Shown: positions 13,116 through 50,358 of the stretch, piece by piece
How positions within the stretch are numbered: the first letter of the stretch is position 1
Layout: the number at the start of each line of letters is the position of its first letter
Assembly (NCBI RefSeq): GCF_009914755.1
Contig: NC_060928.1
Origin: the human T2T-CHM13v2.0 reference genome, Homo sapiens
Length of the DNA: 64,000 bases
Strand: one strand, 5' to 3'
Program-made: the position numbers and the translations under genes
The notes under the pieces: model-generated
Databases searched by the model: none
The model's input: only the letters and a program-made list of their open reading frames with translations
What the model was told of the DNA's origin: nothing

Positions 13116-15889
13116 AGATCTTTACCGTGAAAACTGGGTAGGGCTCCTGGAGTTAAAGACCACAAAAATGCAACGACTCCCTCAAGACTGCAGCCCTCGG
13201 GAATTTCTCACTCTCACACTAGTCCACACTCAGCCTCCAAAATTTAGTTCAAAATTACCATTTAATGTACAATTCTTAATTGACTAATGTCAGTGGAAAT
13301 CTATGCCAAGGAGGTAATGATCAACACATCTAAAAGACTATTTGTTTTCAGATATACAACCATGGCATAAGCATTTGTCTAGAAAGTTTCTGTGAAGCAT
13401 CCCTTTAAAATGAATTTGTTTCTATGGACACCAAAAGCATGTGGCCACTTTACACCTACAGAAGATCTCAGAGCCAAGTCTTGGTAGCAGAGAGCCAAGG
13501 AGGAGTGACATGGGAGTCAGAGTGGCTGAAAGAGTGACCTTTCCTGGGGGCCCCTTGGGCTATGCTTCTGGAGGATGCAGCTCTAAGAGCTTCTCAGAAA
13601 CAACATACCAAGCAGGGATTTTATGTCTTACCCAAAGCACCTCCCTTTATCCTGCTGGTTGACTTTGTATCTATCCAGAGCTACTCAGTTTACACATCTG
13701 GCCAATGTCACACCATGTTGCCATGCCCTAAAATAATTTCACAGCCCCTATATACCTCCTACCTTCCTATTGTGGTGAGAGAATAAAGGTTCCAGTGTAC
13801 ATTTAGAGCAAAATAAAAATCTGGACGGAGTCGGGTGAAGTCACCTGGACAACTCTTGCAGATCACCAAAAAGACTTAATAAAAACAGCATGTTAAGGCT
13901 GCTCTGCCTGTGGAGTGAGTAGCCATACTTTTATTCCTTTACTTTCTTAATAAACTTGTCTTCACTTTATTCTATGGATTCGTTTCGAATTCTTTCTTGC
14001 ACGAGATCCAGTAACCCTCCCTTGGGGTCTGGATCGGGACCCCTTTTCAGTAACATCTTTTTGGCTAACCACAAAGGAACTATACTGAGGAGACCCCCGA
14101 TCCAAAGGAAATAAATTGCAGCACCGACTGGCCAACTTTGGGTAAGTGAGGTGTATTTACCCAGGTAAAGGATGGGATTGGGCTAGAGGCCCAACTTAGG
14201 AGAATGAGTCTCTCCTAAGACAGAGAGGGTAAAGGCCCCTCTTAATAAAAGGCAAGGATGCTTGACCTAACCCAGATTTGAGTCCCAACTTAGGAAGGTT
14301 AGAGTCCTTCCTAAGATTTAGGGGGTTGGAGACCCCTCTCAGTAAAGACCCTCTCAGCTAAGAATGGGTTTGGCACTACAGGGTGTTAACTGCTATTCTC
14401 TTTGGATTAATCTGCTTCTCACTCTTTGCTGATGGCTGTGGGTGACAGGATTAGGCATGTACAGGATCATGGGACATGGGGAGCTTTTTCCTCCCTAAAG
14501 GGGAATACTTAAGAGCTGATGGGACTGCTGGAACAGGTCCCTTCGAGACTGACAAGCAGCCGCCTGAACTTTTGATTCAGCAACGCTGTAACGGGTGGGT
14601 CTTTCTCTGGCCTCCCTGAGCATTTCACCTTCCCCACCCTGCTGCAGGCCATCCTTTTCTCTCTCTTCCTCTCCTTTCTCTTTTCTAACTTTTCTGTTAC
14701 TCAGGGGAACTGTCCACTCTTTCATCCTGCCCAGAAACCACGTGTTGAAAAATGTTCTTGGGAGCTTGACCTTATAACCGTGTGGCAGTACTTTCTCTTG
14801 GTCTCTGCCTTGGAGGAGGCTCATGTCATAGTTTGCCCTAAAAATTATCTTGAGCAGCTAAAAGCCTTTGCAAGTTCAAAATAAGCTGCTCTAGACTCCT
14901 TCTTGGAAGAGTAATAGAAACTGTCTAATGTTGTAGCACAGTAGCTAAGGTTTTGCCATTTTACAATTGCGGTTCAGATTCAATTCCTGGCTTAGGGAAT
15001 AAGTCTTTTTCTGGTTTGATATCTGTGTAACTTTGGCCACTTGTTAATTCTTGGTGCTTCCATGAATAACTCCTGGCTTCCCTTCTTAAATTTTCCTTTC
15101 TCTGAGCACAGAAATATTGACCTTTTGGCCTGGTTAAAGTTGGGTAATAAAAATTAAAAGGACTTTTTTTTTAAAGAGCACTGTGGTTAAAAGTCAGCTT
15201 AATTAAAAGTGGATATTTCAAGCTTTAATAGCCTAGAACTCCTTGGGAAAAACAGAGGAGGTGCTACAGACTCTGCTTTGGGAAAAATCTGTTTTCCTCA
15301 TGAAACCCCAGGAACTGAAAGTGGATAGATCGCTCTCAAAATCTAAGGCTCTTTTCTGTTTTGTATTGCATTATCTGATGTTTTTAACTTTTAGGGGTTT
15401 CAGAAAGTACTTCGCATTATGAGAGAGCATTGGTGTGTCATAACAAGGTAGGAAATATAGTTTTATGGATGGCTAATGGCAGTTATGGGGGGATACTCGG
15501 CTTTTTGCGCATTTAGATCAGAGAAGCATGCTCTTGGCTACCTAGAAAGTATGGCGAAGTCCCCACCCCCCACTGAAAGTTAAGACTCCTATGGGGATGG
15601 GCTGATCCCCTCTTTTGGGGATCCAGGATCTGGTATAAAAATAGGACCCTTAATTTTGGGGACCTGTTTTTACCTTCCAGCTGAGCCTACTTATTCAGGG
15701 GTAAAAAGTGCATACCTTCCTGGACCTGTTCCTCCAAGGGCTCCACCCTGAAGCCAGTAATTCAATTAAGAAACTGGGAAATGAAAAATTTTACAAGTAC
15801 TAGATCTTCTTCTGTCTGTGTATTTATATGTGTTGTGTGTGATGTTTATATATGAAAAAGCTTTAATTGGTTTAAAAATAATAAGTGCT

Positions 15890-16191
15890 GGCCAGGCACG
15901 GTGGCTCACACCTGTAATCCCAGCACTTTGGGAGGCTGAGACAGGTGGATCACGAGGTCAGGAGATCAAGACCATCCTGGCTAACATGATGAAACCCCGT
16001 CTCTACTAAAAATACAAAAAATTAGCCGGGCGTGGTTGCGGGCGCCTGTAGTCCCAGCTACTCAGGAGGCTGAGGCAGGAGAATGGCGTGAACCCAGGAG
16101 GTGGAGCTTGCAGTGAGCCAAGATCCCACCACTGCACTCCAGCCTAGGCAACAGAGCGAGACTCTGTCTCAAAAAAATAAAAAAATAAAAA
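15890..16191 (+). mobile_element. AluY inside MER41 internal sequence
   Basis: Y diagnostics 'gagatcaagaccatcctggctaaca', 'gaatggcgtgaacc', 'ggagcttgcag'; TSD aataagtgct. Confidence 0.92.
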
Positions 16192-16436
16192 TAAGTGCTT
16201 AAATCAAATATTTTCTCAGAAAAGTAAAAACTGCAATGCCTTTAATTCATGTGACTTAAGTAATCTTTGGGAAATAGAAACAGTTCTACATGCAAGGCAT
16301 GTAAGAAAAGTGAAATGTGTTTTTGGTAAAAGATTGTAGGAAGTCATGGGAATGTGTTTCTGTGTTTGTTTGTTTGTTTGTTTGTTTGTTTGCCTAAAGA
16401 GTTAAAGGATTATTTTAACTTAAATAGGATAAAGCC

Positions 16437-16740
16437 GGCCCAGGCACAGTGGCTCATGCCGGTAATGCTAGCACTTTGGGAGGCTGAGGCAGGCAGATCA
16501 CGAGGTCAGGAGTTCAGGACCAGCCTGACCAACATGGTAAAACCTCATCTCTACTAAAAATATAAAAATTAGCTGAGGGTGGTGGTGCATGCCTGTAATC
16601 CCAGCTACTCAGGAGGCTGAGGCAGGAGAATCACTTGAACCCAGGAGGCAGAGGTTGCAGTGAGCCAAGATCACACCACTGCACTCCAGCCTGGGCGACA
16701 GAGTGAAACTCTGTCTCAAATAAATAAATAAATAATAACA
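16437..16740 (+). mobile_element. AluSg-like inside MER41 internal sequence
   Basis: 'gatcacgaggtcaggagttc'; TSD taaataggataaagc at 16421-16435 and 16741-16755. Confidence 0.9.
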
Positions 16741-18122
16741 TAAATAGGATAAAGCTAAAAGTTTAAGTGTTTGTGAAAAATTAATCTTGTAAAAGAGATT
16801 CTGTGTGTGAACATATTGGCTAAAGTTAAATAGGTATTGTTCAATTTTTCCATAAACTGAACATTAAAATAAAAGCACAACAGGTTTTTCTTAGACTACT
16901 GATCTGCTCTTTTACAAAAATTGTAAAGGGTTACAAAAGGTTTATGAGAATCTTACCTTATGGTCAAACTGATTAAGATACAATACATTTGTCTATAAGG
17001 TTTTATTAAGAATTGGGTTTAACATCAATAATGCACTAATGCAATGATGAAATTTGGCTTATTTGGTATAAAAATCATACAGGAAGCATTCTCAAATATG
17101 AAATGGTGCTTGGCTTTCTTTGGGCTTTATTCGTATAAATGTGTTATTGGTACGTGTTCCAAAATTATGGGAAACTCTTATAATTCTGATATTACTTAGT
17201 GTATGCTATTAATAGTTATAATTGTTACATTACATTGATGTATGCCACAGAATTAACAAAATTCCTAGTCAATGGTGGCTTTAATAGAGGCTGCCCTAAG
17301 GCATTTTTTTCATCCACAGACAATCATCTTGTTTTGATCCTCTTTAGAAGGTGGTTTTATAATCAACTATAGAACTCTAACAGGCATTCTTAAATGCAGG
17401 TTTCTGATAACTTTGGAGATTATTAAATTAGAATAGAGGAAAAAACTTTCAGGACACTCATGGAGAGCTGAAATGTTCATGAATATCAAGCAGAACAGGA
17501 GTTAACTGCATGGACTAAACTAATAGAAGTCTGAAGTAATCTTTTTGACTTTTTGCTTAAAACATTGCTAATCCTTTGTTTTTGTTTTTCAGAGTCAAGG
17601 AAACTTTTCTTTTGAGATATTGACAGCTTTTACCAATTGAGTAATGTATATGCCTATGAACAAACTTTGGAGCATACATGTTTTTCTCTACTTGATTTCT
17701 CCAGAATATGGAAACTATTTGTTTTCTTAACTTATGGCAATATAGTTATTTGTATAAGCACAATAAGAATCTGTTTTCATTTGTAACAGGACACAATTGG
17801 AGAAACGGGTTATTTTACCAAGGATTTGACTGGAATGGTGTGCTTTCCTTTAAGGAATCAAACTCAACTTACAGAGCCAAGAAAAGCCCCTTGGGAAAAC
17901 TGGCCTCATACCTTGTCTACACAGTCCCTGTGTAGGTTCCTGACCTGTGGTGAGTGAAGAATGTCACTTTGTGACAAACCCAGGAGGCTTAAGTTATCTT
18001 GGGACATCAAGAGGAGAGGAATTTACCCAACTCATAGGTATTTGAGTATACAAAGCCATGGCTGGGCTCAGATTTTTTTTAAAAATCTTATCTGAGATTC
18101 CTTATGGAACAGAGTTCCATCA

Positions 18123-18455
<333 letters not shown>

Positions 18456-19694
18456 AAAAGAGCTTATGTGAAAAATAATCATTCTTGCTGAACTTTATAC
18501 AAATAATCAGGCCAAGTATAATAATGCAAATCAGTCTTACCATGATTTCTCATTAGTAAAAATGGGAAACTGGAGATAGAAAAATTATATTTCAAAAACT
18601 ATGGTACACTTGTTATTAAATTCTGGTCTCATCGGTTGTTTTTACGTTTTACGCTTTTGTCTATAATTTAGACTAACTAACTCTGCTTATTCCTGCACAC
18701 CAACCAGTGATCTCTAACTGCAGCTCAGAAAAAACAAGAGGAATGGGTAATGTAAAAATTCAGATCAGTATTCTAATTCTGGGCAGATACTGGAATCAGC
18801 TAGCAACCTCATATTAGCTTGGTTCCAGCAGTTGCCCAGTTCATGAAAAGCCTACCTATTTAGTTTATTTGGGATAATTTTCCTTTACTGTTGTGGAATA
18901 TATTGTTGTTGTACTCTTTGTGTAGGAATGCAGGATAAGCTTACTCAATGTTTTCTTAAATTGAACACTTATTAATCTTCCAGATATCACCTTTTATGAG
19001 AACTCAGAGTTACGAATTGCCCTCACCACACTGATGCTTTCTGACTGAGTTCCACTCTACCCTGAATACAAGAGGCAGGAATATCATTGCCCCTGTTCAG
19101 CCTGAAGAAGTTACAGAATATGGATCTTTATCCCTTTACAACCCTTAAGATTAAGGATTCTCTTATAAAAGGGAAGGGGGAAATGTCAGAGGTGTTTGAA
19201 CCAGAACAACCCCATTTTGAATAGGGGCTGGGTAAAATAAGGCTGCGACCTGCTGGGCTGCATTCCCAGATGGTTAGGTATTTTAAGTCACCAGATGAGA
19301 TAGGAGGTCAGCACAAGATACAGCTTATCAGGTCATAAAGACCTTGCTGATAAAACAGGTTGCAGTAAAGAAGCTGGCTAAAACCCACCAAAACCAAGAG
19401 AGTGACCTCTGGTCATCCTCCCTGCTACACTCCCACCAGCACCATGACAGTTTACAAATGCCATGGCAACATCAGGAAGTCACCCTATATGGTCTAAGAA
19501 GGGGAGGCATGAATAACCCACCCCCTTTTTTTTAGCATATCATCAAGAAATAACCATAAAAATGGGCAACCAGCACCCTCCAGGGCTGCTCTGCCTATGG
19601 AATAGCCATCCTTTTATTCCTTTACTTTCTTAATAAATTTGCTTTCACTTTCAAGAAAAAAAACCCAGCACGTTAATTTTATTATTGCAAGAAT

Positions 19695-20220
19695 CAAGCC
19701 ACAACAAAACCATGGTAATCAAGACAGTGAGGTGCTGGCTTAAAGATAGACATATAGATCAATGGAATAGAATTGAAAATCCAGAAATAAACCCTTACAT
19801 TTTTGACAAGCTTATAAAGACAATTCAATGGGGAAATAATAGTCTTTTCAATAGATGGTGCTGGGACAACTGGACATCCATATGCAAAAGAATGAAGTTG
19901 GACCATTACCTCACATCGTGCAAAAACTAACACAAAATGGATCAGAGACCTAAATGTAAAAGCTAAAGCTATAAAACACTTAGAAGAAATCATAGACATA
20001 AATCTTTGTCACCTTTAATTAGGCAATGATCTCTTAGCTATGATACCAAAAGCACAAGTGACAAAAGAAAAAAATAGATAGTTGGACTTCATCAAAATAT
20101 GAAACTTTTGTGCTTAAGGCCACACAAAGAATGGAAGAAAATACTTTTAAATCATATCTATGATGAAGGACTTGTGTCTTGAATAAAGAAGTCTTACAGT
20201 TCAGCAATAAAATAAAAATA
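19695..20220 (+). mobile_element. L1M ORF2 fragment
   Basis: [30 protein letters not shown]...[11 protein letters not shown] is ORF2p C-terminal region. Confidence 0.85.
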
Positions 20221-21385
20221 ACCCTGGAACCCAAATCTTGGTTTCTAATACCATTCTGCAATGGTATCAGTTAAAGGAAAGGGCTCCTGGAGAAATGGCT
20301 GATTCTAGGACTAATGCAAGAATATACAAGATAAGCATAGAACATTTTGTAGCTCCACAAAGTAAGAAAGTACTCAAACACCTCCCTGACAAGCACACAC
20401 ACATAATGATGGAGATACCAAGAACACAGGAGCCAACTGAAAGGACTCCCAATGACAAAAGCTGGAATAATTTGAGCAACAAGACAAATAAAGTAGTACT
20501 CAATTATAAACCAAAATATAAAATAAATATTCATTTGTCCATATGGATATAAATAAAGAAATGAGGGAAAAGAGACAAATCTCACATGCAGAAGAATTCT
20601 GCCATGGTTTGAATGCATCCCGAAGTTTATGTGTTGGATACTTAATCCCCAGTGCAACAGTGTTGAGAGGTAGAGCCTTTAAGATGTGATTAGGTCATGA
20701 GGGCTCTGCCTTCATGAATGGATGAGTGCCATTACATGGGAGTAAGATAGTTATTGTGGAAGTGGGTTAGTCATCACAGGAGTGGGTTCCTAATAAAAGG
20801 GTTAGTCTGGACTGCTTCCTCGTGCTCTCTTGTTTTATTACCTTTCACCATGGGATGACACATTAAGAAGACCCTGACCAGATGTGCCTCTTGATCTTGG
20901 ATTTCCCAGTCTCGAGCACTGTAAGAAATAAATCTCTGTTCTTTATAAAATATTCAGTCTATTGTATTCTGTTATAACAGCAGAAAATAGACTAAGACAA
21001 ATTTCAAATAATTTATGTAGAGATTCTGCCCTCAAAAGGCAGGTCATAACTCCTTAGACCTTAGAGGCAAGCTGTGCATAGTAACTTCCTTGCAAAGAGT
21101 ACGATATGGAAAGGGGTTGTGGAAGAAACTGGACAAATACTGCCTCAGCTAGATGATTCAGGTCAATATCAATGATAGGCCATGTCAATAGTATATGACG
21201 AAAATGGCACTTTTTATGGGTTTCCTCCCCAAACTCACAACCTCAATCTAATCATGAGAAAAACATCAGAAAATCCCAAAAGAAGAACATTCTGCAAAAT
21301 ACCTGACCTGTGCTCCCCAAAACCATGGAGGTCACCAAAAACAAGGAAGGTCTAAGAAACTGTCATAGACGAGAGGAGCCTGACA
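20221..21385 (+). mobile_element. L1MC-type 3'UTR interrupted by MSTD
   Basis: 'cccaaatcttggtttctaataccattct...gggctcctggagaaatggctgattctaggact', 'ctaatcatgagaaaaacatcaga'. Confidence 0.7.
20600..20999 (+). mobile_element. MSTD-like MaLR solo LTR
   Basis: TG...CA ends, 'taggtcatgagggctctgcc', AATAAA, 3' 'gactaagaca'; 5 bp TSD aattc/aattt. Confidence 0.85.
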
Positions 21386-22736
21386 GGTAATTTGGTATAG
21401 ACACCTCCAGCATACAAAATGGACCTTGTCAAAGCCTGTTGAATGACCTCTAACCAACTAGAGAAGGCAATGAAACCCAAGGAAATGACAAACAAGTTAA
21501 GCTCTAGAAATACCCCCATAAAGAAGAAGAAATTTTTGTCTTTCTGAATTTATCAAATAACAGGGATTATAATAGTAATATAGTAAATAAAAGGTTAATT
21601 AATTGTTAAATTATTAACCTTTTTTATTTTTATTATTTTAAAAGTTAGCATTTTAGAACCAATTATTATGTTCTGGTATTGAGTAAATTTCTTTTGTATT
21701 CATAATCTCACCTAAATCTCACCTTAGTAGAGGAACTATTACTATTTCCACTTTACACATGAAAGAATTGGGGCTGGCACAGTCTCAGCCCCTGCCAGAA
21801 TACTTTGCAAGGTGCTACCTTATAAAACAAATGATAAGACCCAACTCTGCTGTCAGGAAGCTATAATCCAGTTAGAACTAGAAATAAAAGGCAATGCCAT
21901 ATGTGATTAAATGCCAAATTAATTGTATAAACTATAAATGTTATAGGATTTCAGCGGAGAAAAAGATTGCCTTGGGCTGAAATGATCAGAGAAGACCATT
22001 GAAGAGGCAAGTTTTGGTCAAGACCCCAAAGGAGAAGATGGAAGATGGGAAGGAAGCCGATTCCAGGAAGGAGGGGAAGGCACCAAAGTGGGAGGAGAAA
22101 GAGCAGTCTGGCTATGTTGAAGTAGCTGAGTTTTTTTGCTAGGATAATGTGGGCGATAAGCAGAGATCAATTAGGCAAGTCCTTAGATTCCAAGTTAAGG
22201 AATTTGAATTCAACTCTATCTTGTACTGAAGGAGCAAGAAACTTTGAGCTTTAAGGGACCAGGTCAAGATAATACTGTGTTAATGAGACATCTTGAAAAT
22301 AATTTTCACTGTACAGGGCTGTTCAGGATTGAACTTTAAAGAGTTAAGGATTATAGCAGTTATTGAAATATGTATGAGGACTAACCATATAAGCAGCATT
22401 TTAGGACCATAAAGAACCTATGTAGAAGACAGGAGACTTCCCAAAAAAGGAAAGAGTGGTGTAAGCTGTTATCAATGACTCAAAAGAAAATCAAGTGCTT
22501 GTCTAATTTTCTTTCCCTGTGTCCCTTTTTTTTTCTGTTTTGCTGTTTTCCCATCTCTGTATTTTCTCCTCCTTTGCTATGACTCATTTCCATTTGCTCT
22601 CTCAATCTCTCTTTCACTCTCATAAATACTGAGCCCTCACTGTCTCTCCTCTGCACTTCCATTTCAATCCCTTTTTCTTTAAGCTCTCTTCCTCTACTCA
22701 TCTCTCAAAATGTTGATTTATATCCCACGTTCTCCC

Positions 22737-22748
22737 TGTGTGTGTGTG

Positions 22749-22794
<46 letters not shown>
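22737..22794. repeat. (TG)n microsatellite
   Basis: Directly visible. Confidence 0.95.
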
Positions 22795-22796
<2 letters not shown>

Positions 22797-23393
22797 GAAA
22801 GAAAGGTGAAAGTAGATGCTATTTCTACATGACTCTCTGTGTTGGCTGGGGGCAACAGAAGCTATAGGTGTTATTTAAATATTAGTCTCTTCTCCATCCC
22901 AAAATAAAGCAGAGGTGATTTGGATAAATTAGGGGAAAACTATAAGGAGTTACTACAGTATTCTGTAACAGAAAAGGAAAATCTCCTTTGTCCATATTAT
23001 TAGTTCAGGACAGAGTTATTCTCTATGAATTGGGATTAGTTATATCTCCTATAACTAAATTAATTTTTTAAGAATGGGGAAAATTATAGATTGAGCCTCT
23101 GATTAAAATATTTCAAGAACAGACAAGAAAAACCAACAAATAAATGTACTATAGGTGTCTCCTAGCTTTGGAAAAGAAAAGTGTGTATGCTTTTCAAAAC
23201 GTAACAACACACACTTGGGTGTAGCAACATTACTTGTGCGTACAGCTCTTCTGCTTCATGTCTTCTCTCAGTGTCCCCGACAGGGCAAGGCCCTCAAAGG
23301 CAAGAGTGCCCTAGACCGCAGAGAACACTGCACCAAGCTTGATAAGCACTCCTCCCTTTCAAATGTGGTTGGTATTGCAAGATTTTTTTTCTT

Positions 23394-23749
23394 TCTTTCC
23401 TTTTAATTTTCAATTTTTGTGGGTGCAGGGTAGGTATATATATTTAAGAGGTACATGAGATATTTTGATACAGGCAAACAATGCATAAAAATTATATCAG
23501 GGTAAATGGGGTATCTATCATCTCAAGCATTTATCCTTTCTGTTACAAACAATACAATTATGTACTTTTAGTTATTTTTAAATGTACAATTAAATTATTA
23601 TTGATTATAGTCACCCTTCTATGCTAACAAATACTAGATCTTATTCACTCTTTCTAAGTATTTTTTTGTAAGCACTAACCATCCCCACTTCCCCCAACCC
23701 ACCCCCAGCTGCCCTTTCCAGCTTCTGGTAACCATTATTCTACTCTCTA
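23394..23749 (-). mobile_element. L1MA2/3-like 3' end
   Basis: 'gtacatgagatattttgatacaggc...aaatggggtatctatcatctcaagcatttatc'; TSD caa(g/t)attttttttctt. Confidence 0.85.
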
Positions 23750-38840: not shown

Positions 38841-39020
38841 CTAATTTAATAGCTCTTTATCTTGAAAAAAAATTAAAGAAATCCATCTCCAAATTATCCC
38901 ACATAGAAATCCTGTGATGATTAGAGAACAGAATTTTCGAGTGGTCTTCATTTAAATAATGACAGAAATGGTTGGGGACAGTGGCTGTGTGCTCAGCACT
39001 GTGCTGAAATTAAAATAATA

Positions 39021-39911
39021 CTAGGTGAGTGCAAAAGTAATTGTGGTTTTTGCATTGTTAAAATTTGCCATTTGATATTGGAATACATTCTTAAATAAAT
39101 GTGGTTATGTTATACATCATTTTAATGGGTATTTCTCACTTTTTTGGCTAATAACATTACTTTCTGTTTATGTTTATTTTAGACTACAGAAATGATGTTA
39201 GACAAAAAGCAATTTTCTTCGTTGAGTTCAAAATGGGTCGTAAAGCAGAGGAGACAACTTGCAACATCAACAGTGCATCTGGCCCAGAACTGCTAATGAA
39301 CGTACAGTGCAGTGGTGGTTCCAGAAGTTTATGCAACAACAATGAACCATTTCTCGATTGGATTGTGACATGTGACAAAAAGTGGATTTTATACAACAAC
39401 CAGCAATGACCAGCTCAGTGGCTGGACCAAGAAAAAGCTCCAAAGCACTTCCCAAAGCCAAAATTGCACCAAAAAAAGGTCATGGTCACTGTTTGGTGGT
39501 CTGCTGCCAGTCTGATCCACTACAGCTTTCTGAAACCCAGTGAAACCATTACATCTGAGAAGTATGCTCAGCAAATCGGTGAGGTGCACTGAAAACTGCA
39601 AAGCCTGCAGCCAGCATTGGTCAATAGAAAGGGCCTAATTCTTCTTCACAACAATGCCTGACTGCACATTGCACAACCAACGCTTCAAAAGTTGGACGAA
39701 TTATGCTACGAAATTTGGCCTCATCTGCCAACCAAGCATTTGTCAAATCTTGAAGCAAGGATCTTTATACTACAGGAATAAACAAACATTTCTCACTGAC
39801 AAAAATGTGTTGATTGTAATGGTTCCCATTTTCATTAATAAAGATGTTTAAGCCTAGTTATAATGATTTAAAATTCAGTCTGAAACCACAATTACTTTTG
39901 CACCAACCTAG
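39021..39911 (+). mobile_element. Hsmar1 mariner transposon, internally deleted, both TIRs present
   Basis: TIRs ctaggtgagtgcaaaagtaattgtggtttt and aaaccacaattacttttgcaccaacctag; transposase remnants FKMGRKAEETTCNIN and NNEPFLDWIVTCDKKWILYNN. Confidence 0.95.
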
Positions 39912-40111
39912 TTTATTCAAAAAATTTGCAATTTAATATATGACCCTTTTGTCTTTTACCTTTTTATGAGAGTATTTTTTCTCAATTTAAGATTATTTTT
40001 AAGTTACAGAGAAAAAAATCACATGTTAAATTTTTACAGCCTAAGGCTATTTCTCTCTATTCATGGCGTACACCACACCTTCATAATCCTGTCCTTGTTT
40101 CTCTAAGCTTC

Positions 40112-40585
40112 TGTTGTAGGCACAATTCTAAGATGGTCACCATGGTCTCTGCCCCCTGGTGTTTCTCCCATGATTATATTAGTTACATGGCAAAAGTATT
40201 TTGCAGATGTAATTAAGGTTACTAATCATGTGATCTTAAAATAGAGAGATAGAGAACTTTGGTTGGTGTAATTTAATCATATGAGCCCTATAAAAACAGA
40301 TTTTTCTCTAGCTGGTAGTAGAGCTGGAAGTCAGAGAGATTCCAAGTGTCAGAAACATTTGACATGTCATTGCTGGCTTTGGAAGTGCAGGAAACCACGT
40401 GGTGAGAAATATTAACAGCTTCCAGGAGCTGAGAGCAGTCCCTGCCGGACAGCAAGCAAGGAAACAGGAAGTGCGATCCTTCAACCACGAAGAGCTAAGC
40501 ACTGCCAACAACCTAAAGGAGCTTGGAAAAGGATTGTCCCCTACTCCCCCTAGGTAAAAGCCCAGTCCAGCCTATACATGACTTT
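40112..40585 (+). mobile_element. MLT1D/E-type LTR, 3'-truncated
   Basis: 'ttacatggcaaaag...ttttgcagatgtaattaaggttactaatca...cattgctggctttg'. Confidence 0.75.
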
Positions 40586-40799
40586 AAAAATGTGTTAAGA
40601 AAAGTTCTAATTCTTATTATTTTTTTAAAAATCAAAAAGAGATATTGAAATTTTTTAAATGCTTGTATGCATCAACAGAGATAATCCTGTCATTCTCATT
40701 TCTTATCTATTAACCTGGTTAGCTGTTATTGTTTTCTTTGTGACTGTTCTTGTATTTCTGATATGATTCCAACTAGAGTATAGGCTATTACTGCATTAA

Positions 40800-41102
<303 letters not shown>

Positions 41103-41918
41103 CGTGCTACTAGATTCTAATTGTTAATATTTTAAAGTTTGTGCACTGATATGTGTACAATTACCCTGTAGCCTTGCTTTGTGATACTAGTTTTGTCAGG
41201 TATATTAACTGACACTTATATGCCCATCCCAACATGCTGATGCTTATCATTTGCATGGTATATCTCTTTCCATCCTTTTGTTTTTAATATATCTTTCATA
41301 TTTAAAGTTCGTTTCTTGTGGATAGAATACATTGGAGTCAGTCTTGCTTTTTTAATCCATTCGATAATCTCTACCTTTTAATAGTTTAGTCCATTTATAT
41401 TTATGCAGTTATTAATATGGTAGGATTTTGATCTACCAATGTAATTTTTAAAATATTTGACCCTTCCACTTTTTGTTGGGCTTTTCAATTTTTGCAGGAC
41501 TTTTTTTGCCTATGTGGTGGGTGTGGGGTACTATCTTGTGGTTTTACTTTATATTTTCCTAAATACTGATAAGATTTAGCACCTTTTCACATGTTTGTGA
41601 ACTATATGGGTATCTTCCTTGTAAAGTTGATTAGGTTTTTTGGCAATTTTTCTGTGAGTTTTCTTAACTTTTTCCTTCTTGATGCTGTAGAAGTGCTTTA
41701 TATATTCTGGTTGGCTATATATGTTGCAATTTCCTTCTCCCACTCTATTGCTTGCCTTTTTACTATCTTAATGGTCTTTTTTTGAGAAATACAGGCTCAT
41801 AATTTTAATGTAATCAAATTAATTTTTTCTTATTATTAATGCATTTTGTGCCATGGCCAAAGGCCACGAAGATGTTATCTTCTAAATATTTCATTGTTTG
41901 GCCTTTTATTTAGGTCTT

Positions 41919-44184
41919 TGATATGGTTTGGCTGTGTCCCCACCCAAATCTCAACTTGAATTGTATCTCCCAAAATTCCCATGTTGTAGGAGGAACCCAG
42001 GGGGAGGTAATTGAATCATGGGGGCTGGTCTTTCCTGTGTTATTCTCATGGTAGTTAATAAGTCTCATGAGATCCGATGGATTTATGAGGGGTTTCCACT
42101 TTTGCTTCTTCCTCATTTTCTCTTGCCACTGCCATATAAGAAGCACCTTTTGCCTCCCGCCATGATTCTGAGGCCTCCCCCGCCATGTGGAACTGTAAGT
42201 CCAATTAAACCTCTTTTTCTTCCCAGTCTCAGGTATGTCTTTATCAGCAGTGTGAAAATGGACTAATACAGTAAACTGGTACCAGTAGAGCGGGGTGTTG
42301 CTGAAAAGATACCCGAAAACATGGAAGCGACTTTGGAACTGGGTAACAGGCAGAGGTTGGAACAGTTTCGAGGACTCAGAAGAAGACAGGAAAATGTGGG
42401 AAAGTTTAGAACCTCCTAGAGACTTGTTGAATGGCTTTGACAAAAATGCTGATAGTGATATCAACAATAGGACCAGGCTGAGGTGGTTTCAGATGGAGAT
42501 GAGGAACTTGTTGGGAAATGGAGTAAAGGTGACTCTTGTTATCTTTTAGTAAAGAGACTGGCAGCATTTTGCCCCTACCATAGAGATTTGTGGAACTTCG
42601 AACTTGAGAGAGATGATTTAGGGTATCCAGCAGAAGAAATTTCTAAGCACCACAGCTTTCAAGAGATGACTTGGATGCTGTTAAAAGCATTCCATTTTAA
42701 AAGGAAAACAGAAGATAAAAGTTTGGAAAATTTGCAGTCTGATGATGCAGTAGAAAAGAAAAATCCATTTTGGGGGGAGAAATTCAAGCCAGCTGCAGGA
42801 ATTTGCATAAATAGCAAGGAGCCTAATGTTAATCCCCAAGATCATAGGGAAAATGTCTCCAGGCCATGTCAGAGACCTTCACAGCAGCCCCTCCCATCAC
42901 AGGCCTGGAGGCTCAGGAGGAAAAACTGGGCCCAGGGTCCCTGTGCTGTGTGCAGCCTAGGGACTTGGTGTCCTGTGCCCCAGCCACTCCAGCCATGGCT
43001 GAAAGGGGCCAACATACAGCTCGGGCAGTGGCTTCAGAGGGTGGAAGTTCCAGGCCTTGGCAGCTTCCATGTGGTGTTGAGCCTGCAGGTGCACAGAAGC
43101 CAAGAATTGAGGTTTGGTAACCTCTGCCTAGATTTCAGAAGATGTGTGGAAACGCCTGGATGCCCAGGCAAAAGCTTGCTGCAGGGCGGGGCCCTCATAA
43201 AAAACCTCTGATAGTGCAGTGTGGAAGGGAAATGTGGGGTCAGAGCCCCCACACAGAGTCCCTCCTGGGGCACTACCTAGTGGAGCTGTGAGAAGAGGGC
43301 CATCGTCCTCCAGACCCCAGAATGGTAGATCCAACAACAGCTTGCACTGTGTGCATGGAAAAGCCACAGACATTCAATACCAGCCCGTGAAAGCAGCTGG
43401 GAGGGAGGCTGTACCCTGCAAAGCCACAGGGGCAGAGCTGCCCAAGACCAAGGGAACTCACATCTTGCATCAGCGTGACCTGGATGTGAGACCTGGAGTC
43501 AAAGAGATCATTTTTAAGCTTTAAGATTTGACTACCCCGCTGGATTTCAGGCTTGCATGGGTCCTGTAACCCCTTTGTTTTGGCCAATTTCTCCCATTTG
43601 GAAAGGCTGTATTTACCCAATACCTGTATCCTCATTGTACCTAGAAAGTAACTAGCTTGTTTTTGATTTTACAGGCTCATAGGCAGAAGGGATTTGCCTT
43701 GAGACCTTGGACTGGGGACTTTTGGGTTAATGCTGAAATGAGTTAAGACTTTGGGGGACTGTTGGGGAAGGCATGATTGGTTTTGAAATGTGCAGACATG
43801 AGATTTGGAGCATCCAGGGGCGGAATGATATGGTTGGGCTCTGTCTTCACCCAAATCTCAACTTGAATTGTATCTCCCAGAATTCCCACGTGTTGTGGGA
43901 GAGACCTAGGGGGAAGTAATTGAATCACGCGGGACGGTCTTTGGTATGCTATTCTCGTGACAGTGAATAAGTCTCACGAGATCTGATGGGTTTATCAGGG
44001 GTTTTCGCTTTTGCTTCTTCCTCATTTTCTCTTGCCGCTGCCATGTAAGAAGTGCCTTTTTCCCCCCGCCCCCACCATGATTCTGAGGCGTCCCCAGCCA
44101 TGTGGAACTGTAAGTCCAATTAAACCTCTCTTTCTTTCCAGTCTAGGTATGTCTTTATCAGCAGTGTGAAAATGGACTAATACA
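41919..44184 (+). mobile_element. Full-length THE1A MaLR provirus (LTR 41919-42270, internal, LTR 43826-44184)
   Basis: Two homologous LTRs tgatatgg...gactaataca; THE1-int start gtaaactggtaccagtagag; exact 5 bp TSD gtctt at 41914-41918 and 44185-44189. Confidence 0.95.
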
Positions 44185-44189
44185 GTCTT

Positions 44190-45336
44190 TATCTCAGCTG
44201 GAATTACTCTGTGTGTTTGTGATATGAGTTCGGGCTGAAGCTTCTTTTCTTCCACAGCAATGTCTAATTTTTCGTGCATCATTTGTTGGAAAGGCCATCT
44301 TTTCCCCCCACTGATAGTGTCATCTTTGTCATGAGTCAGGTGTTCATATATACATGAGTCTATTTCTGGGTTTTCTATTTTATTCCATTGTCTTATTTTC
44401 TGATCTTTGCACCAAAAGACTGTATTTTTAAAATTCCTAATACTTAAAAATAAGTCTTGACACTTGGTAGGGCAAGTTCCCTGAAAACTGTTCTTTTTTA
44501 TTGAGTGTCTTATCTATTCTTAGCCTTTTATTTCCACATAAGTTTAAATCACTGTTAATTTATACACAAAATTTCCATTGCCATTCTGATTAATATTACA
44601 TTAAATCTATAGCTCTATGGGCAATTTGAGTGAATTGACAGCTTACAGTATTGGATTTTTCATTCCATGAACATGACATATAGCTCCCCTTATTTAAATC
44701 TGTTAAAATTTCTTTCAGTAATCTATTTAGCTTCCTGCATAAAGGTCTTTAACATTTTTTTTCATTAGATCTGTTCATTAGACATTTTTTATGCTAATGC
44801 TAATATTGCTTATTTTAAATTTTATTTTCTAACTGCTTGTTAATGATATATAAAAATATGATTTATATATTGCTTATGAACCCAGAAACCCTGCTAAATT
44901 CTAAGTTCACAATCCTATTATCTGCAAATAATGACAATTTTATTTTTTATCTCATACTCCTGTGCATTGCTATTTTCAGTTTCGTGATCTCTCTAGGACC
45001 TCCCATAGAATGTTGAATAGAAGTGGGCAAATTTATCTTTCTCCCATTCTTAAAGGGAAACCTTTTTACTTTCCCTGGTTAAATATAACTTCTGCTGTAA
45101 ATTTTGGTAGATGCTGTCTGTAAGATTAAGGAAGTTCCCTGCTATTCTTAATTTACTAGCAGTATTTTTAAAATCATGGATGTTGGATTTAGTATAATCC
45201 TTTTTCTGCATATATTGAGAAATATTATAATTTTTCTCCACTAATCTATTAATTGGTGAGTTATGTTGGTAAGTTTTCTGATGTTAAGCCAACTTGAAAT
45301 CCTTACATAAATCCAATTTGGTCATGATATATCATC
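44190..45336 (-). mobile_element. Old L1M host element (also ~41500-41918 and 50301-51440)
   Basis: Antisense ORF2-derived sequence ('attaaggaagttccctgctattct', 'aatccaatttggtcatgatat') continuing across the THE1A and MER41 insertions. Confidence 0.8.
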
Positions 45337-45489
45337 TTTTTTTTAAGTGAAAGCAAGATTATTAAGAAAGTAAAGGAATAAAAAAATGTCTACTCCATAG
45401 GCAGAGCAGTGTCTTGGGGTGCTCAACTGCCTGTACTTATTGTTACTTCTTGATTATATGTTAAACAAGTGGTGGATTATTCTTGAATT

Positions 45490-45519
45490 TTCCGAGAAAG
45501 AGGTAGGTAATTCTGGGAA
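45490..45519. promoter_or_regulatory. Tandem GAS (STAT1) motifs in MER41B U3
   Basis: TTCCGAGAA 45490-45498 and TTCTGGGAA 45511-45519 both fit TTCNNNGAA. Confidence 0.75.
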
Positions 45520-48500
45520 CTGGGGGTTCCTCCCCTTTTTAGACAATATAGGGTAACTTCCTGATGTTGCCATGGCATTTATAAACAGTCATGGTGCTGC
45601 TGGGAGTGTCTTTTAGCATGTTAATGCATTATAATTAGCATATAATAAGCAGTGAGAGGGGTCAGAGGTCACTCTCATCACCATCTTGGTTTTGATGGGT
45701 TTTAGCTGGCTTCTTTACCACAGCCTGTTTTATCAGCAAGGTCTTTATGACCTGTATCTTGTGCCAACCCCCTATCTCATCCTGTAACTAAGAATGCCTG
45801 ACCTCCTGGGTGTGCAGCCCAGCAGGTCTCAGCCTTATTTTACCCGGCCCCTATTCAAGATGGAGTTGCTCTGGTTCAAACACCTGTGACATATTTCCCC
45901 CTCCCTTTTACAAAACAACCTGTAATCCTAATGGTTGTAGAGGAATGAATACCCATCTTCTGTAACTTCTTCAGGCTGAATGGGGGCAATGATATTCTTG
46001 CCTATTAGGGTCTCTCATATTCAGGATAGAGAGGAGCTCGGTCACAAGATATCTGTATGCTGAGGGTCATTCATAACTCTGAGTTCTGACAAAAGGTGGT
46101 ATCTGGAAGATTAATAAGTGTTCAATTTAAGAAAACATTCAGTAAACTTATCCTGCATTCCTAAACAGAGTACAACAGCAATATTTTCCACAACAGTAAA
46201 ACAAAATCAGTAAAATTATCCCAAGTAAACTAAATAAGAAGGATTTCCATGAACTGCGCAATTATTGAAACCAAGCTGATATGGGTTTGCTAGCTGATTC
46301 CAATATGTGGTCAGAATTAGAATATTGATCCAAATTTTTACATTACCCGTCCTTGTTTCTTCTGAGCTGCAGCCAGAGATCACTTGTCGGTTCACAGGAA
46401 TAGGCAGTCAGTCTATTGCTGCAAAAAAAAAAAAAGAAACAACTCAAAAACAACTGATGGCATTAGAATCTAATAACAGATATATCATAGTTCTTGAAAT
46501 AATTTTTTTCTTTTTCCAGTTTCCCATTTTTACTAAAGACAAATTATGGCAAGACTGATTTGCTTTATTATATTTGGCCTGGTTATTCGTATAAAGTGCA
46601 GCAAAAATAATTATTTTTTACATAGGCTTTTAAAATGGGCTTTGATGGAACTTTGTTCCATAAAAGGAATCTCAGATAAGACTTTTTCTGAAGTCAAGCC
46701 CAGGCCAGGGTTTGTACCCTCAAATACCTAGGAATTGGGCAAATTCCTCTCCTCTTGTTGTCCTAAGATAACTTGGGGCTCCTGTGCCTGTCAGAAAGTA
46801 ACATTCCTTACTTACTACAGTTAGGAACCCTGTACAGGGACTGTGTAGACAAGATATGGGGCCAGTTTTCAGCTTTTATTGGATCTACAAGTCAAATTTG
46901 ATTCCTTAAAGGAAAACATACTATTCCAGCCAAAGCCTTGGTAAAATAACTAACTTCTCCAACTGTGAACTGTTGCAAAAGAAAACATTCTTACTGCATT
47001 TATGCAAATAACTATATTGCCATAAATTAAGAATACTCACAAATAGTTTCCAAATTCTGGAGAAATCAGTTAGAGAGAAACAAATATACTCCAAAGTTTG
47101 TTCACAGGAGTATACTTTGCTCAATTGTTAAAAGCTGTAAATAGTTCAAGAGAAAAGTTTTCTTGGCTCTGATAAACAAAACAAAGGATCAGCAACATTT
47201 TAAGCAAAAAGCCAAAAACATTACTTCAGTCTTCTATTAGTTCAGTCCCTGCAGTTAACTCCTGTTCTGCTTGATATTCATGAACATTCCAGCTCTCCAG
47301 GAGAGCCCTGAAAGTTTTTTCCTCTATTCTAATGTCACAATCTCCAAAGTTATTAGAAACCTACATTCAAGAGCGCTTGTTTGTTAGAGTTCTATAGTTG
47401 ATTATAAAACCACCTTTTGAAGAGGATAAAAACAAGACAACAATTATCTGTAGATGACAAAAAGTCTTAGGGCAGCCACTATTAAAGCCACAATTAAATA
47501 GGACTTTTGGTTATGTCTGTGTCATACAATAATTGTACATAACAATATAACTGTTATACACTAAGTTATATCAGAATTATAAGTTTCCCATAATTTTAGA
47601 ACACATACCAATAACATATTTATACAAATACAGCCCAAAGAAAGCCAAACACCATTTCATATTTGATAACACTTCCTGTATGATTTTAATATTCCAAATA
47701 AGCCAAATACATCATTTTTGGACTTTAGGGGACTTAATATATAAAAGATTAACTACATAAGAAAAAGACATAATTTATAATTTGATTTTGGAAAGTTTGT
47801 CAAATATTAAAGGTTTAAGTACTTGATATTTTAAAATAGAATATGAGGTTACTATAAGCCATTCATTTAGACAAAATGATAACTCAAAATTTTCAAAAAG
47901 GAAAACCTTTACTTATTAATAGAGAGAAGACTTAGCTTTCCAAACAGTCTGTCTCTTTTCTTCCCCTTCTTTTTCCTGTAGTTTATTCAAAAGGCAAACA
48001 AAAAATTTTCATTTTTTTAATATACCATGAAAATCTTGTTCAAGAGAAAGCCTAAATTTTACCTCTGCATTAAAGCATTATTGATGTCAAACCCAATTCT
48101 TAATAAAACCTTATGGACAAATCTATCAAATTTTAATCAGTTTGATCATAAGGTAAGATTCTCATAAACATTTTATAACCCCTTACAATTTTTTTGTTAA
48201 AGAGCAGATCATTGCTCTCAGGAAACCCTGTTGTGCTTTTATTCCAATGCTCAATTTATGGAAAAAGTGAATAATGCCTCTGTAACTTTTAGCTAATATG
48301 TTCACACACAATTTTTTTACAAGAGTAATTGTTCATAAACCTTTCACAACTTGTTCAAACCTTCAGCTTTTTCCTATCTAACTTGAAACAATCCTTTAAC
48401 ACTTTAGGCAAAAAAGATCCACATTCTCATGATTTCTTATAATCTTTTACCAAAAACACATTTCACTTTCCTTATACACCTAGCGTGTAAAACTGTTTCT

Positions 48501-48751
48501 TCAATAGCCTCAATTATATGTTATAATGTTAACTCTTAGAAACAATTATTTTTGGACGAAAAAAAAACCTGAGAACTAAGGAATTTTAATTATTTACTAG
48601 ATGTGGAGCCTAGGACATCAGACAGAAGTGCAGATAAGGTCTGCCTCTTTCCAGCATAGCTAGGGGCATGGCTGACTCCAGATGTGCCCATGCCTTATCT
48701 AGAATCTAATGCTCCAAAGTAGTTAAACGGAAAATTTTCAAGAGTCAAAGA

Positions 48752-48811
48752 AGTTGGTCATGGTGGCTCAGACCTGTAATCCCAGCACTTTGGGAGGCTG
48801 AGGCGGGTGGA
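48752..48811 (+). mobile_element. Alu 5' stub at a deletion junction in MER41 internal sequence
   Basis: 'tggtggctcagacctgtaatcccagcactttgggaggctgaggcgggtgga' joined directly to MER41-int. Confidence 0.85.
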
Positions 48812-50358
48812 ACAGAACAGAACCTTAGATTTTGAGAGGGATCTATCCACTTTCAATTCCTGGGGTTCCGTGAGGAAAATTTTCCCCAAAACAGGTTTTT
48901 CCCAAAACATGATCTTGTGCCTCCTCAGTTCTTCCCAAGAAGTCTCAGGCTATAAGAGCTTGAATATCTGCTTTTAATCAAGCTGACTTTTAACCATAGC
49001 GCTCTTATAAAAAAAAAAAAAAAAAAGGTCGTTTTAAATCTCTTATTACCTGACTTTAGCCATGCCAAACCACCAATATTTCTGACTTTTGAACTTTACC
49101 AAAGGTACCTCCCAGGTGCTCAAAGAAAATTCAAGATGGTTCATGGAGGGGAAGAGAATAAAAAAATGTCAAACGTCACTCAAATATCAACCAGAAAGTA
49201 CGCATACCCTAAATCAGGATTGAACCTGCCACTGTAAAATGGCAAAGCCTTAGCTGCTGAGCTACAACATTGGGCAGTTTCCATTGCCCGACCCAGAAGG
49301 AGTCCAGAGCAGCCAATTATGAGCTTGCAAAGGCTTTTAACTGTTCAAAATAATTTTTAGGGCTAACTATGACAGGAGCCCCAAAATCCCTGTTCTATGG
49401 AAGCCAGAGACCAAGAGGAAGTACTGCCACGTGGTTACAAGGTCAAGCTCCCAAGAACACTTTTCAACATGTGGTCTCTGGGCAGGATGAAACAGTGGAC
49501 AATTGCCCTGAATAACAGAAAAGATAGAAAAGAGAAAGGAAAGGAAGGGAGAAAAGCATTGCCTGCAGCAGAGTGGGGAAGGCAAGGAGTTCAGGGAAGC
49601 CAGAGAAAGACACACCCATTACAGTGACACTGAATCAAAAGTTCAGGCAGCTGCTTGTTGGTAGTGAAGGAATCTTTTCCAGCAGTCCCATCAGCTCTTG
49701 AGATTCCCTCTTTGGGGAGAAAAAAAGTTCCCCATGTCCCATGATCCTGTACATGCCTAATCCTGTCACCCACAGCCATCAGCAAAGAGTGCAAGGCAGA
49801 TTAATCCAAAAAGAATAGCAATTAACATCCTGTAGTGCCAAATCCGTTCTTAGCTGAGGTACTTTACTGAGAGGGATCTCTAACCCTCTAAATCTTAGGA
49901 AGGACTCTAACCTTCCTAAGTCAGGCCTTGAAGGCAAGTGCAGTCAAGTGTCCTGCCTTTTAAGAGGCACCTTTAACCTACTCTGTCTTAGGAGAGACTT
50001 TAACTCTCCTAAGTTGGGCCTCTAACCCAATCCCATCCTTTACCGGGATACCCTACCACTTACCCAAAGTCAGCCAATCAGTGTTGTAGTCTATTTCCTT
50101 TGGGTTGGGGGTCTCCTCAGTATAGTCCCTTTGGGGTTTGCAAGGAAAATGTTATTGGAAAGGGGTCCCAATCCAGACCCCAAGAGAGGGTTCTTGGATC
50201 TCATGTAAGAAAGAATTTGAGGCAAATCAGTAGAGTAAATTGAAAGCAAGTTTATTAAGAAAGTAAATTAAAGAATGGCTACTCCACAGGCAGAGCAGCC
50301 AGTCATGATACATTATTTTTTAATGTATTGCTGAATTTGTTTTGAAATTATTTTATTT

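What the first reader, a model, noticed from the sequence alone, without database searches (positions are those of the whole stretch)
13881..50317. Two independent MER41 retrocopies within ~36 kb share the same start and polyA site
Seen: both MER41 elements lack the 5' U3 and the 3' U5. Both begin at GGCTGCTCTGCC (13897 +; 50300 -) and both end at ...TTGCTTTCACTT followed by an A-run (19651; 45345). Each has its own long TSD, and their LTRs differ in subtype (A-like and B-like), so one is not a duplicate of the other. Established: integrase-made proviruses have two complete LTRs and 4-6 bp TSDs; R-U5...U3-R-polyA with long TSDs is the structure of LINE-1-retroposed HERV-W processed pseudogenes. 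Inference: MER41 RNA was repeatedly mobilised in trans by L1, which would be a second route for spreading MER41 U3 enhancers. I know this mode as established for HERV-W but not for MER41. Two cases this close suggest it is common or that the locus was a hotspot.
Basis: partly seen in the sequence, partly recalled or inferred. Interest (0 to 1): 0.85.

Follow-up and report, generated by a model that had tools for sequence, protein, structure and literature searches.

The report
L1-made retrocopies of MER41 retrovirus RNA
Both MER41 elements are copies of the retrovirus's RNA that the LINE-1 machinery pasted into the genome, and this route, which reviews describe as unique to HERV-W, turns out to be common for MER41 across the human genome.

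Summary
Element e1 (13897-19651, +) and e2 (45345-50300, -) each have the layout R-U5...U3-R followed by an A-run. Their only terminal repeat is the 65-72 nt R region, and each has its own A-initial target-site duplication (TSD) of about 19-20 bp. They are 76-83% alike and carry different LTR types, A-like and B-like.

Genome-wide, 18 of the 40 best 5' ends of this family start at R within 3 nt. Nine of 9 such elements with an intact 3' end stop at the R poly(A) site. Five of 5 elements with a 5' U3 keep U5 and have TG...CA LTRs with 4-bp TSDs. For e2, three paralogous copies of the repeat it inserted into show an uninterrupted site with one TSD copy.

A further class appeared: R-only copies of about 65 bp plus poly(A), with 10-15 bp TSDs (10 of 12 sampled loci).

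The mechanism is LINE-1 retroposition of LTR-driven RNA. The papers I could read call HERV-W the sole HERV group mobilised this way, and none I found describes this for MER41. I rate it a new member of a known kind. A local hotspot is not needed to explain the pair and was not tested. No orthologue or Dfam check was possible.

The parts
13897..19651 (+). e1: retrocopy with layout R-U5-internal-U3-R (5755 bp, including three inserted ~300-bp repeats)
13897..13968 (+). e1 5' R, which starts at the inferred transcription start
   Evidence: 72-nt repeat with 19584-19651
13969..14055 (+). e1 U5, ending ...GTAACA like the proviral LTR ends
19184..19583 (+). e1 3' U3, A-like, no GAS motif; an ATAAAAA box lies about 28 nt before R
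19584..19651 (+). e1 3' R with AATAAA, ending at the poly(A) site
13878..13896 (+). e1 TSD, 5' copy
19656..19676 (+). e1 A-run plus TSD, 3' copy
45345..50300 (-). e2: retrocopy with layout R-U5-internal-U3-R (4956 bp)
50237..50300 (-). e2 5' R
50150..50236 (-). e2 U5, ending ...AATAACA
45410..45891 (-). e2 3' U3, B-like
45345..45409 (-). e2 3' R; its poly(A) signal has decayed to AATAAT
45490..45519 (-). tandem GAS motifs TTCCCAGAA and TTCTCGGAA, with starts 21 nt apart
   Evidence: the published MER41B feature was read
45451..45476 (-). match to the published MER41B-derived 26-mer (2 mismatches; 0 matches expected by chance)
50302..50321 (-). e2 TSD, 5' copy, preceded by TT
45321..45344 (-). 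e2 A-run plus TSD, 3' copy

Best explanation
e1 and e2 are two independent LINE-1-made retrocopies (processed pseudogenes) of LTR-driven MER41 genomic-length RNA.

The proposed steps are as follows. A source provirus was transcribed from the U3/R border of its 5' LTR, about 28 nt downstream of a TATA-like box. The RNA was cleaved and polyadenylated about 13 nt after the AATAAA in the R of the 3' LTR. LINE-1 endonuclease nicked an A/T-rich target of the TT|AAAA type. The poly(A) tail primed reverse transcription at the nick, and the cDNA was copied to the RNA cap.

This leaves R-U5...U3-R-A(n) between 10-21 bp duplications. Such a copy has no upstream promoter and cannot form a solo LTR.

What is shown: the structure, the TSDs, the A-tails and the genome-wide recurrence. 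What is inferred: that LINE-1 was the enzyme, and when the insertions happened.

The same machinery also appears to have copied a short RNA of about 65-70 nt that starts and ends within a single LTR, giving the R-only copies.
For: 1. Anatomy of e1 and e2.
2. 5' ends: of the 40 best genomic matches to R-U5-leader, 18 lack U3 and start within 3 nt of the same base (one of them is truncated at R position 39). 20 have U3. 2 are an X/Y pair with a partial U3.
3. Start histograms using proviral queries that include 120 nt of U3: 10 of 39 and 12 of 39 hits start at positions 118-123. None start between 60 and 117 except the X/Y pair.
4. 3' ends: 7 of 39 (A-type query) and 10 of 24 internal-bearing hits (B-type query) end at the R end, against 0 of 15 solo-like LTRs. 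Of the 16 such ends fetched, 12 are followed at once by a run of 5 or more A.
5. Clean split between two classes: 9 of 9 U3-less elements with an intact 3' R stop at R. 5 of 5 U3-bearing elements run on into U5 and have TG...CA LTRs, with 4-bp TSDs perfect in 4 of 5 and 3 of 4 bases matching in the fifth.
6. TSDs: 7 of 10 two-ended retrocopies have junction-abutting TSDs of 10-21 bp, and all 7 begin with AA.
7. Surrogate empty site for e2: three paralogous copies of the host repeat are uninterrupted and hold a single copy of the 17-18 nt duplicated stretch.
Against: No orthologous empty site could be examined, because no primate genomes are held.

The surrogate test for e1 was inconclusive.

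Three of 10 two-ended copies show no clear TSD (L012, L040/74, L038/76).

The e2 tail is short: about 4 of its 8 A's are target-derived. The e1 A-run sits 4 nt after the common R end.

Each genome search scored only 40 of 2070-4347 candidates, so the fractions describe samples of best matches and not a census.

The family name rests on two literature features, not on a Dfam or Repbase alignment.
Confidence: 0.93

Rival explanations
1. e1 and e2 are integrase-made proviruses that later lost the 5' U3 and the 3' U5 by deletion.
For: Old proviruses often have damaged LTRs. The X/Y pair L022/L023 does have a partly deleted 5' LTR together with a full 3' LTR.
Against: The borders are identical within 3 nt in 18 of 40 sampled 5' ends and in 17 sampled 3' ends. 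A-tails are present. TSDs are 10-21 bp, against 4 bp in true proviruses. The 3' state follows the 5' state in all 14 elements tested, 9 of 9 and 5 of 5.
Confidence: 0.02
2. One element is an inverted duplicate of the other, that is, a segmental duplication.
For: They share the same family and the same truncation points, lie 36 kb apart and face opposite ways.
Against: They are only 76-83% identical. Their U3 types differ. Their TSDs and flanks differ.
Confidence: 0.01
3. The closeness of the two copies reflects a specific insertion hotspot at this locus, not the general abundance of such copies.
For: There are two copies within 36 kb. A third U3-less copy lies about 1 Mb upstream on the same chromosome (L027). 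The window is A/T-rich at 39% GC.
Against: About 50 such loci were seen on many chromosomes from capped samples alone. Both copies sit in ordinary high-copy repeat DNA. My own rough estimate, not a tool result, is that with 100 or more copies that prefer A/T-rich DNA, one pair this close somewhere in the genome is not unlikely.
Confidence: 0.1
4. This rival concerns the R-only class only. These copies are not copies of a short RNA. They are 'solo-R' remnants, formed when the two R repeats of a full-length retrocopy recombined and deleted everything between them, as happens in solo-LTR formation.
For: The product would look the same: one R, the original poly(A) and the original TSD. Full-length retrocopies with two R repeats do exist.
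Against: R is only 65-72 nt long. From recalled general knowledge, not tested here, homologous recombination in mammalian cells falls off steeply below about 200 bp. Yet R-only copies are the majority of sampled poly(A)-ended loci, 10 of 12. A solo LTR, or a leaky 5' LTR poly(A) site, would by default produce exactly this RNA.
Confidence: 0.25

Closest known systems
HERV-W (HERV17/LTR17) processed pseudogenes made by LINE-1
   Same: The 5' LTR lacks U3, the 3' LTR lacks U5, a poly(A) tail follows, and TSDs are long. These are the hallmarks as worded in PMC6995185 (passages) and PMC11359688 (figure legend). Retrocopies and proviruses occur in comparable numbers. MER41 is placed with HERV-W in the HERVW9 supergroup (PMC4724089 and PMC5753468, passages).
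   Different: It is a different and, by recall, older family with different LTRs. The internal part shows no Pfam domain. Two LTR subtypes were both retroposed. An abundant R-only class exists that the HERV-W papers I read do not describe. Those papers call HERV-W the sole or unique group.
Processed pseudogenes of cellular mRNAs
   Same: Same machinery and same marks: start at the transcript 5' end, poly(A), 7-20 bp TSD, TT|AAAA-type target.
   Different: The template is a retroviral LTR-to-LTR transcript, so the copy has a short terminal repeat (R) and carries a U3 enhancer/promoter block at its 3' end.
SINEs and other short RNAs mobilised by LINE-1 (Alu, SVA)
   Same: The R-only copies are short, poly(A)-tailed, TSD-flanked and present at many loci.
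   Different: They carry no internal promoter, so each copy is a dead end. Their number reflects the output of many LTR promoters rather than master copies. This last point is inferred.
Solo LTRs
   Same: A single repeat unit is left at the locus. This is the model for the 'solo-R' rival.
   Different: Solo LTRs are complete U3-R-U5 units with 4-bp TSDs. None of the 15 sampled solo-like LTRs ends at R.

Membership tests
LINE-1-made processed pseudogene of ERV RNA (HERV-W type) | The 5' LTR lacks U3 and the copy starts at R | tested here: met
   recurs in 18 of 40 sampled 5' ends and peaks
LINE-1-made processed pseudogene of ERV RNA (HERV-W type) | The 3' LTR lacks U5 and the copy ends at the R poly(A) site | tested here: met
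   9 of 9 U3-less elements with an intact 3' end
LINE-1-made processed pseudogene of ERV RNA (HERV-W type) | Poly(A) tail after the 3' R | tested here: met
   e1 and e2 each have a run of 8 A, short and in e2 partly target-derived. Elsewhere 12 of 16 ends have a run of 5 or more A, up to 20.
LINE-1-made processed pseudogene of ERV RNA (HERV-W type) | Long TSD (over 7 bp) abutting both ends | tested here: met
   e1 about 19 bp, e2 about 20 bp; 7 of 10 two-ended copies have 10-21 bp
LINE-1-made processed pseudogene of ERV RNA (HERV-W type) | Target resembling the L1 endonuclease site TT|AAAA | tested here: met
   e2 has TT|AAAAAA and e1 has TT|AATAAAAA. All 7 clear TSDs start with AA. The sample is small and no background model was run.
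LINE-1-made processed pseudogene of ERV RNA (HERV-W type) | Empty pre-insertion site holding one TSD copy | tested here: inconclusive
   No orthologues are held. The surrogate test with paralogous repeat copies was met for e2 and was inconclusive for e1.
MER41 (ERV1) with MER41A/B-type LTRs | MER41B has two GAS motifs in tandem, 21 bp apart; MER41A has no such tandem | tested here: met
   e2 U3 has TTCCCAGAA and TTCTCGGAA 21 nt apart; e1 U3 has none. The feature is from PMC2897888 (passages).
MER41 (ERV1) with MER41A/B-type LTRs | Sequence match to a published MER41B-derived motif | tested here: met
   The 26-mer from Table 1 of PMC2897888 matches 45451-45476 (-) with 2 mismatches; 0 of 100 shuffles match.
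MER41 (ERV1) with MER41A/B-type LTRs | Alignment to the Dfam/Repbase consensus of MER41-int and the MER41A/B LTRs | not testable with these tools
   No repeat library is held. The LTR lengths measured here, about 560 and 640 bp, agree with what I recall for MER41A and MER41B.
Integrase-made provirus | Two complete LTRs (TG...CA) and a 4-6 bp TSD | tested here: not met
   Not met by e1 or e2. Met by family members L013, L016, L018, L020 and L030.

The most novel reading that the evidence does not exclude
MER41 LTRs, probably including solo LTRs, produced a short RNA of about 65-70 nt that starts at the LTR cap site and is polyadenylated at the R/U5 site of the same LTR. LINE-1 copied this RNA many times. 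That would create a class of R-only mini-retrocopies I found described in no paper, numbering tens to hundreds of loci and now hidden among 'MER41 LTR fragments'. Together with the full-length retrocopies, about one in six R ends of this family that keep the exact 18-mer would be L1-made rather than integrase-made. The R-only copies would be a fossil record of the exact transcript ends of an ancient enhancer-donor LTR.
Probability: 0.6. Interest if true: 0.7.

Novelty: new member of a known kind. Interest (0 to 1): 0.6.

Why it matters
Reviews of HERV-W state that it is the only HERV group mobilised by LINE-1, and they build arguments about special properties of the HERV-W LTR on that point. 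A second family of the same supergroup that does the same thing at comparable frequency would remove the uniqueness claim. It points instead to more general causes, such as germline LTR activity during a period of high L1 activity.

There are practical consequences.
- Many loci annotated as MER41 provirus or LTR fragment would be promoterless retrocopies.
- LTR-LTR divergence dating does not apply to them.
- They cannot yield solo LTRs.
- Catalogues of MER41 STAT1 enhancers mix two insertion mechanisms that prefer different targets.
- The retrocopies pin down the MER41 transcription start and poly(A) site to the base.

Tried and rejected
- Pfam scans of 37 stop-to-stop ORFs and of read-through frames with X at stops, for e1, e2 and two true proviruses, found 0 families. 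The internal gene content therefore could not be described.
- The surrogate empty-site test for e1 with three paralogous repeat copies gave only weak, ambiguous alignments.
- The TSD search gave nothing clear for L012, L040/74 and L038/76. L021, L015 and L011 were left out of the TSD count, because their 3' ends are followed by another repeat, disrupted or truncated.
- 3' ends were not found in the fetched stretches for L017, L027, L075, L077, L078 and L079. They were incomplete for L080 and L081.
- Pavlicek 2002 (PMC155283) and Chuong 2016 (PMC4887275) are not held.
The motif-count estimate stands in for it.
- Rejected readings: deletion-damaged proviruses, and duplication of one element. See the rival explanations.
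Full report
**Observation**

On the + strand, GGCTGCTCTGCC begins at 13897. The element ends with ...TTGCTTTCACTT at 19651, followed by CAAG and eight A's. On the - strand, the same 12-mer begins at 50300. The element ends ...CTTGCTTTCACTT at 45345, followed directly by eight A's.

Self-comparison shows that the only terminal direct repeat is 72 nt long in e1 (86% identity) and 65 nt in e2 (85%). Neither element has two LTRs. The two elements are colinear but only 76-83% identical, so neither is a recent copy of the other. No further copy of this family lies in the window.

**Anatomy**

I compared both elements with full LTRs of the same family elsewhere in the genome to set the borders.

| Part | e1 (+) | e2 (-) |
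|---|---|---|
| 5' R | 13897-13968 | 50300-50237 |
| U5 | 13969-14055 | 50236-50150 |
| 3' U3 | 19184-19583 | 45891-45410 |
| 3' R | 19584-19651 | 45409-45345 |

- In e1's 3' U3, an ATAAAAA box lies about 28 nt before the first base of R.
- AATAAA lies inside R, about 13 nt before the end of R.
- R therefore runs from a plausible cap site to a plausible cleavage site.
- The e1 flanks repeat AATAAAAACAGCATGTTAA / AAAAAAAACCCAGCACGTTAA.
- The e2 flanks repeat AAAAAATAATGTATCATGAC / AAAAGATGATATATCATGAC.
- Both repeats abut the element and both are preceded by TT.

**Family**

No repeat library is available here, so I tested two published MER41B features.

- Schmid and Bucher 2010 (PMC2897888, passages read) report that the MER41B consensus has two GAS motifs 21 bp apart. 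Their Table 2 lists no 21-bp spacing for MER41A.
- They also give a 26-nt motif derived from MER41B.
- The e2 U3 has TTCCCAGAA and TTCTCGGAA with starts 21 nt apart. The e1 U3 has no TTCNNNGAA at all.
- The 26-mer matches e2 at 45451-45476 with 2 mismatches, where none is expected by chance.
- Proviral members have LTRs of about 560 bp (A-like) or 640 bp (B-like) that start TGTCAG and end AACA.

**Is it recurrent? 5' ends**

The window's own assembly can be searched. A query of R-U5-leader from e1 returned 40 scored matches out of 2070 candidates. I fetched the flanks of all 38 matches outside the window and classified them.

- 16 of the 38 have no U3 upstream and start within 3 nt of the same G. 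One of these is truncated at R position 39. With e1 and e2 that makes 18 of 40.
- 20 have a full U3. Two of these look like one inverted duplicate pair.
- 2 are an X/Y pair with about 47 nt of U3.

I then used queries from true proviruses that include the last 120 nt of U3. With the B-type query, 10 of 39 hits start at positions 120-122, 29 start at 1-48, and none start in between. With the A-type query, 12 of 39 start at 118-123. These searches added three more loci, for 21 U3-less 5' ends in all.

**3' ends**

Queries made of internal sequence plus a full 3' LTR gave the following.

- A-type query: 7 of 39 hits end at the R end (positions 755-762). 29 reach U5.
- B-type query: of 24 hits that include internal sequence, 10 end at R (834-838), 7 end at the U5 end, and 7 end elsewhere.
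- None of the 15 solo-like LTRs ends at R.

I fetched 16 of these 17 R-ended junctions; the seventeenth is L019, already in hand. The result:

- 12 are followed at once by a run of 5 or more A, up to 20.
- 2 have only four A's.
- 1 is in fact a diverged U5, so it is a provirus.
- 1 is followed by the T-run of another repeat.

None of these loci lies within 10 kb of the 21 5' ends.

**The two classes do not mix**

- All 9 U3-less elements whose 3' R is intact stop at the R end (L012, L019, L021, L024, L026, L028, and L032, L040, L038 with their 3' pieces).
- All 5 U3-bearing elements with a visible 3' LTR run on into U5 (L013, L016, L018, L020, L030).
- Those five have 4-bp TSDs, four perfect and one with 3 of 4 bases. 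That is the integrase signature.
- Of 10 retrocopies with both junctions readable, 7 have abutting TSDs of 10-21 bp, all starting with AA. Three have no clear TSD. All 10 have an A-rich run after R.

**Surrogate empty site**

The 3' flank of e2 belongs to an old dispersed repeat. From recall this is L1 ORF2-like; I did not test that. Three paralogous copies of the repeat are uninterrupted. e2's 5' flank aligns up to ...TATCATGAC, and its 3' flank aligns from AAAAGAT... onward, so one stretch of 17-18 nt is covered by both flanks. This is what a true TSD predicts. It also shows that about four of e2's eight A's come from the target. The same test for e1 was inconclusive.

**A further class: R-only copies**

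Exact pattern counts in the assembly were as follows. All reversed-pattern controls gave 0.

| Pattern | Count |
|---|---|
| 18-mer at the R end | 1304 sites |
| 18-mer plus the first 7 bases of U5 | 410 sites |
| 18-mer plus 0-4 nt plus A7 | 46 forward rows and 75 partly redundant reverse rows |

The last pattern gives 64 distinct loci among the 100 rows that were listed, so roughly 76 in all by my estimate.

I fetched the first 12 distinct loci in list order.

- 10 of the 12 consist of R alone. They run about 60-70 bp from the usual start to the poly(A) site, with no U3 before and no U5 after. One of them starts 18 nt upstream of the usual start.
- The other two carry U3.
- 7 of the 10 R-only copies have clean abutting TSDs of 10-15 bp.

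A count-based cross-check gives a lower figure. A 10-nt U3 motif is present at the right distance in 173 U5-ended LTRs, about 42% when set against the 410 of the one-base-stricter pattern. Among the 64 listed poly(A)-ended loci, only 13 (20%) have it. This suggests that roughly half of the poly(A)-ended loci lack U3. My estimate for the R-only share is therefore between about half and four fifths.

One search also lists 21 distinct U3-bearing poly(A)-ended loci, 19 of them new. In total, about 50 loci show the U3-less 5' end or the U3-R-poly(A) 3' end, in addition to the R-only copies.

**Mechanism**

The simplest reading is LINE-1 target-primed reverse transcription of polyadenylated, LTR-initiated RNA. 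This is the mechanism accepted for HERV-W processed pseudogenes. For the R-only copies, the template would be the RNA that an LTR makes when its own R poly(A) site is used. A solo LTR would make this RNA by default. The alternative, recombination between the two short R repeats of a full-length retrocopy, gives the same product and is not excluded. I give it about one chance in four.

**Literature**

- Grandi 2018 and 2020 (PMC5775608 and PMC6995185, passages) repeat this and list the hallmarks used here.
- Vargiu 2016 (PMC4724089, passages) notes that processed pseudogenes were not separated from proviruses, and places MER41 in the same supergroup as HERV-W.
- Full-text searches combining MER41 with processed pseudogene, retrocopy, L1-mediated, poly A tail or TSD terms found no paper that links them. 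In the two such hits that I opened (PMC5753468 and PMC9963469), 'processed pseudogenes' appears only in general passages on L1 and non-LTR elements, away from MER41.
- Pavlicek 2002, Costas 2002 and the Repbase/Dfam notes could not be read. An earlier mention remains possible.

**Limits**

- Each similarity search scores only its 40 best candidates. Fractions are for those samples.
- The R-only class rests on 12 sequenced loci plus counts.
- No orthologues, no repeat library and no expression data were available.
- Internal regions gave no Pfam hit even in true proviruses. The coding content of the template RNA is therefore unknown.
- The hotspot idea was not tested. Given the number of copies and the A/T-rich setting (39% GC), it is not needed.

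Noticed in passing
window 46347-46418 (-): The annotated exon of lncRNA LOC105377343 lies inside e2, on the element's strand. It has a pyrimidine tract and AG before it and GTAATG after it. Part of the retrocopy has therefore been taken up as an exon.
   Followed up: partly
window 15892-16191, 16440-16738, 18150-18460 (+): Three ~300-bp copies of one repeat, 82-86% alike, interrupt e1. From recall they are Alu-like. They account for e1 being longer than e2.
   Followed up: no
G000 contig C23 (154 Mb, about 5% of the assembly): 11 of the 40 best 5'-end matches lie on this contig, as do 5-6 of 40. Both retrocopies and proviruses are among them. This is a several-fold excess that I did not test statistically.
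   Followed up: no
e1, e2, L013:3384-9071, L020:960-8373: No Pfam family was found at E of 0.01-0.1 or better in any forward frame read through stops. This includes the two true proviruses with 5.7- and 7.4-kb interiors. The family's internal sequence seems to lack recognisable gag, pol or env.
   Followed up: partly
L022 / L023 (C23:87.97 Mb and C24:2.87 Mb); L030 / L031 (C23:61.56 and 61.67 Mb): Near-identical pairs of MER41 elements. One is an X/Y pair with about 47 nt of 5' U3 and a full 3' LTR. The other is an inverted pair on C23. A further pair lies at C23:61.605 / 61.623 Mb. These are probably later segmental duplications.
   Followed up: no
L088 (C1:202862620-202863350): An R-only copy lies next to inverted R and R-U5 fragments of the same family on both sides. 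It was apparently inserted into an older LTR.
   Followed up: no
window 19700-20000 (+) and 45000-45344 (-): Both retrocopies sit in old high-copy repeats. Their 3' flanks have 8450 and 269 first-look candidates in the genome, at 68-79% identity. From recall these are L1 ORF2-derived.
   Followed up: partly
L090 (C2:108081675-108082405), inside the element that starts at L040: A second U3-R-poly(A) end lies 3.9 kb into a U3-less element, whose own 3' end lies 1 kb further on. It is followed by internal sequence again. This may be a nested or rearranged retrocopy.
   Followed up: no
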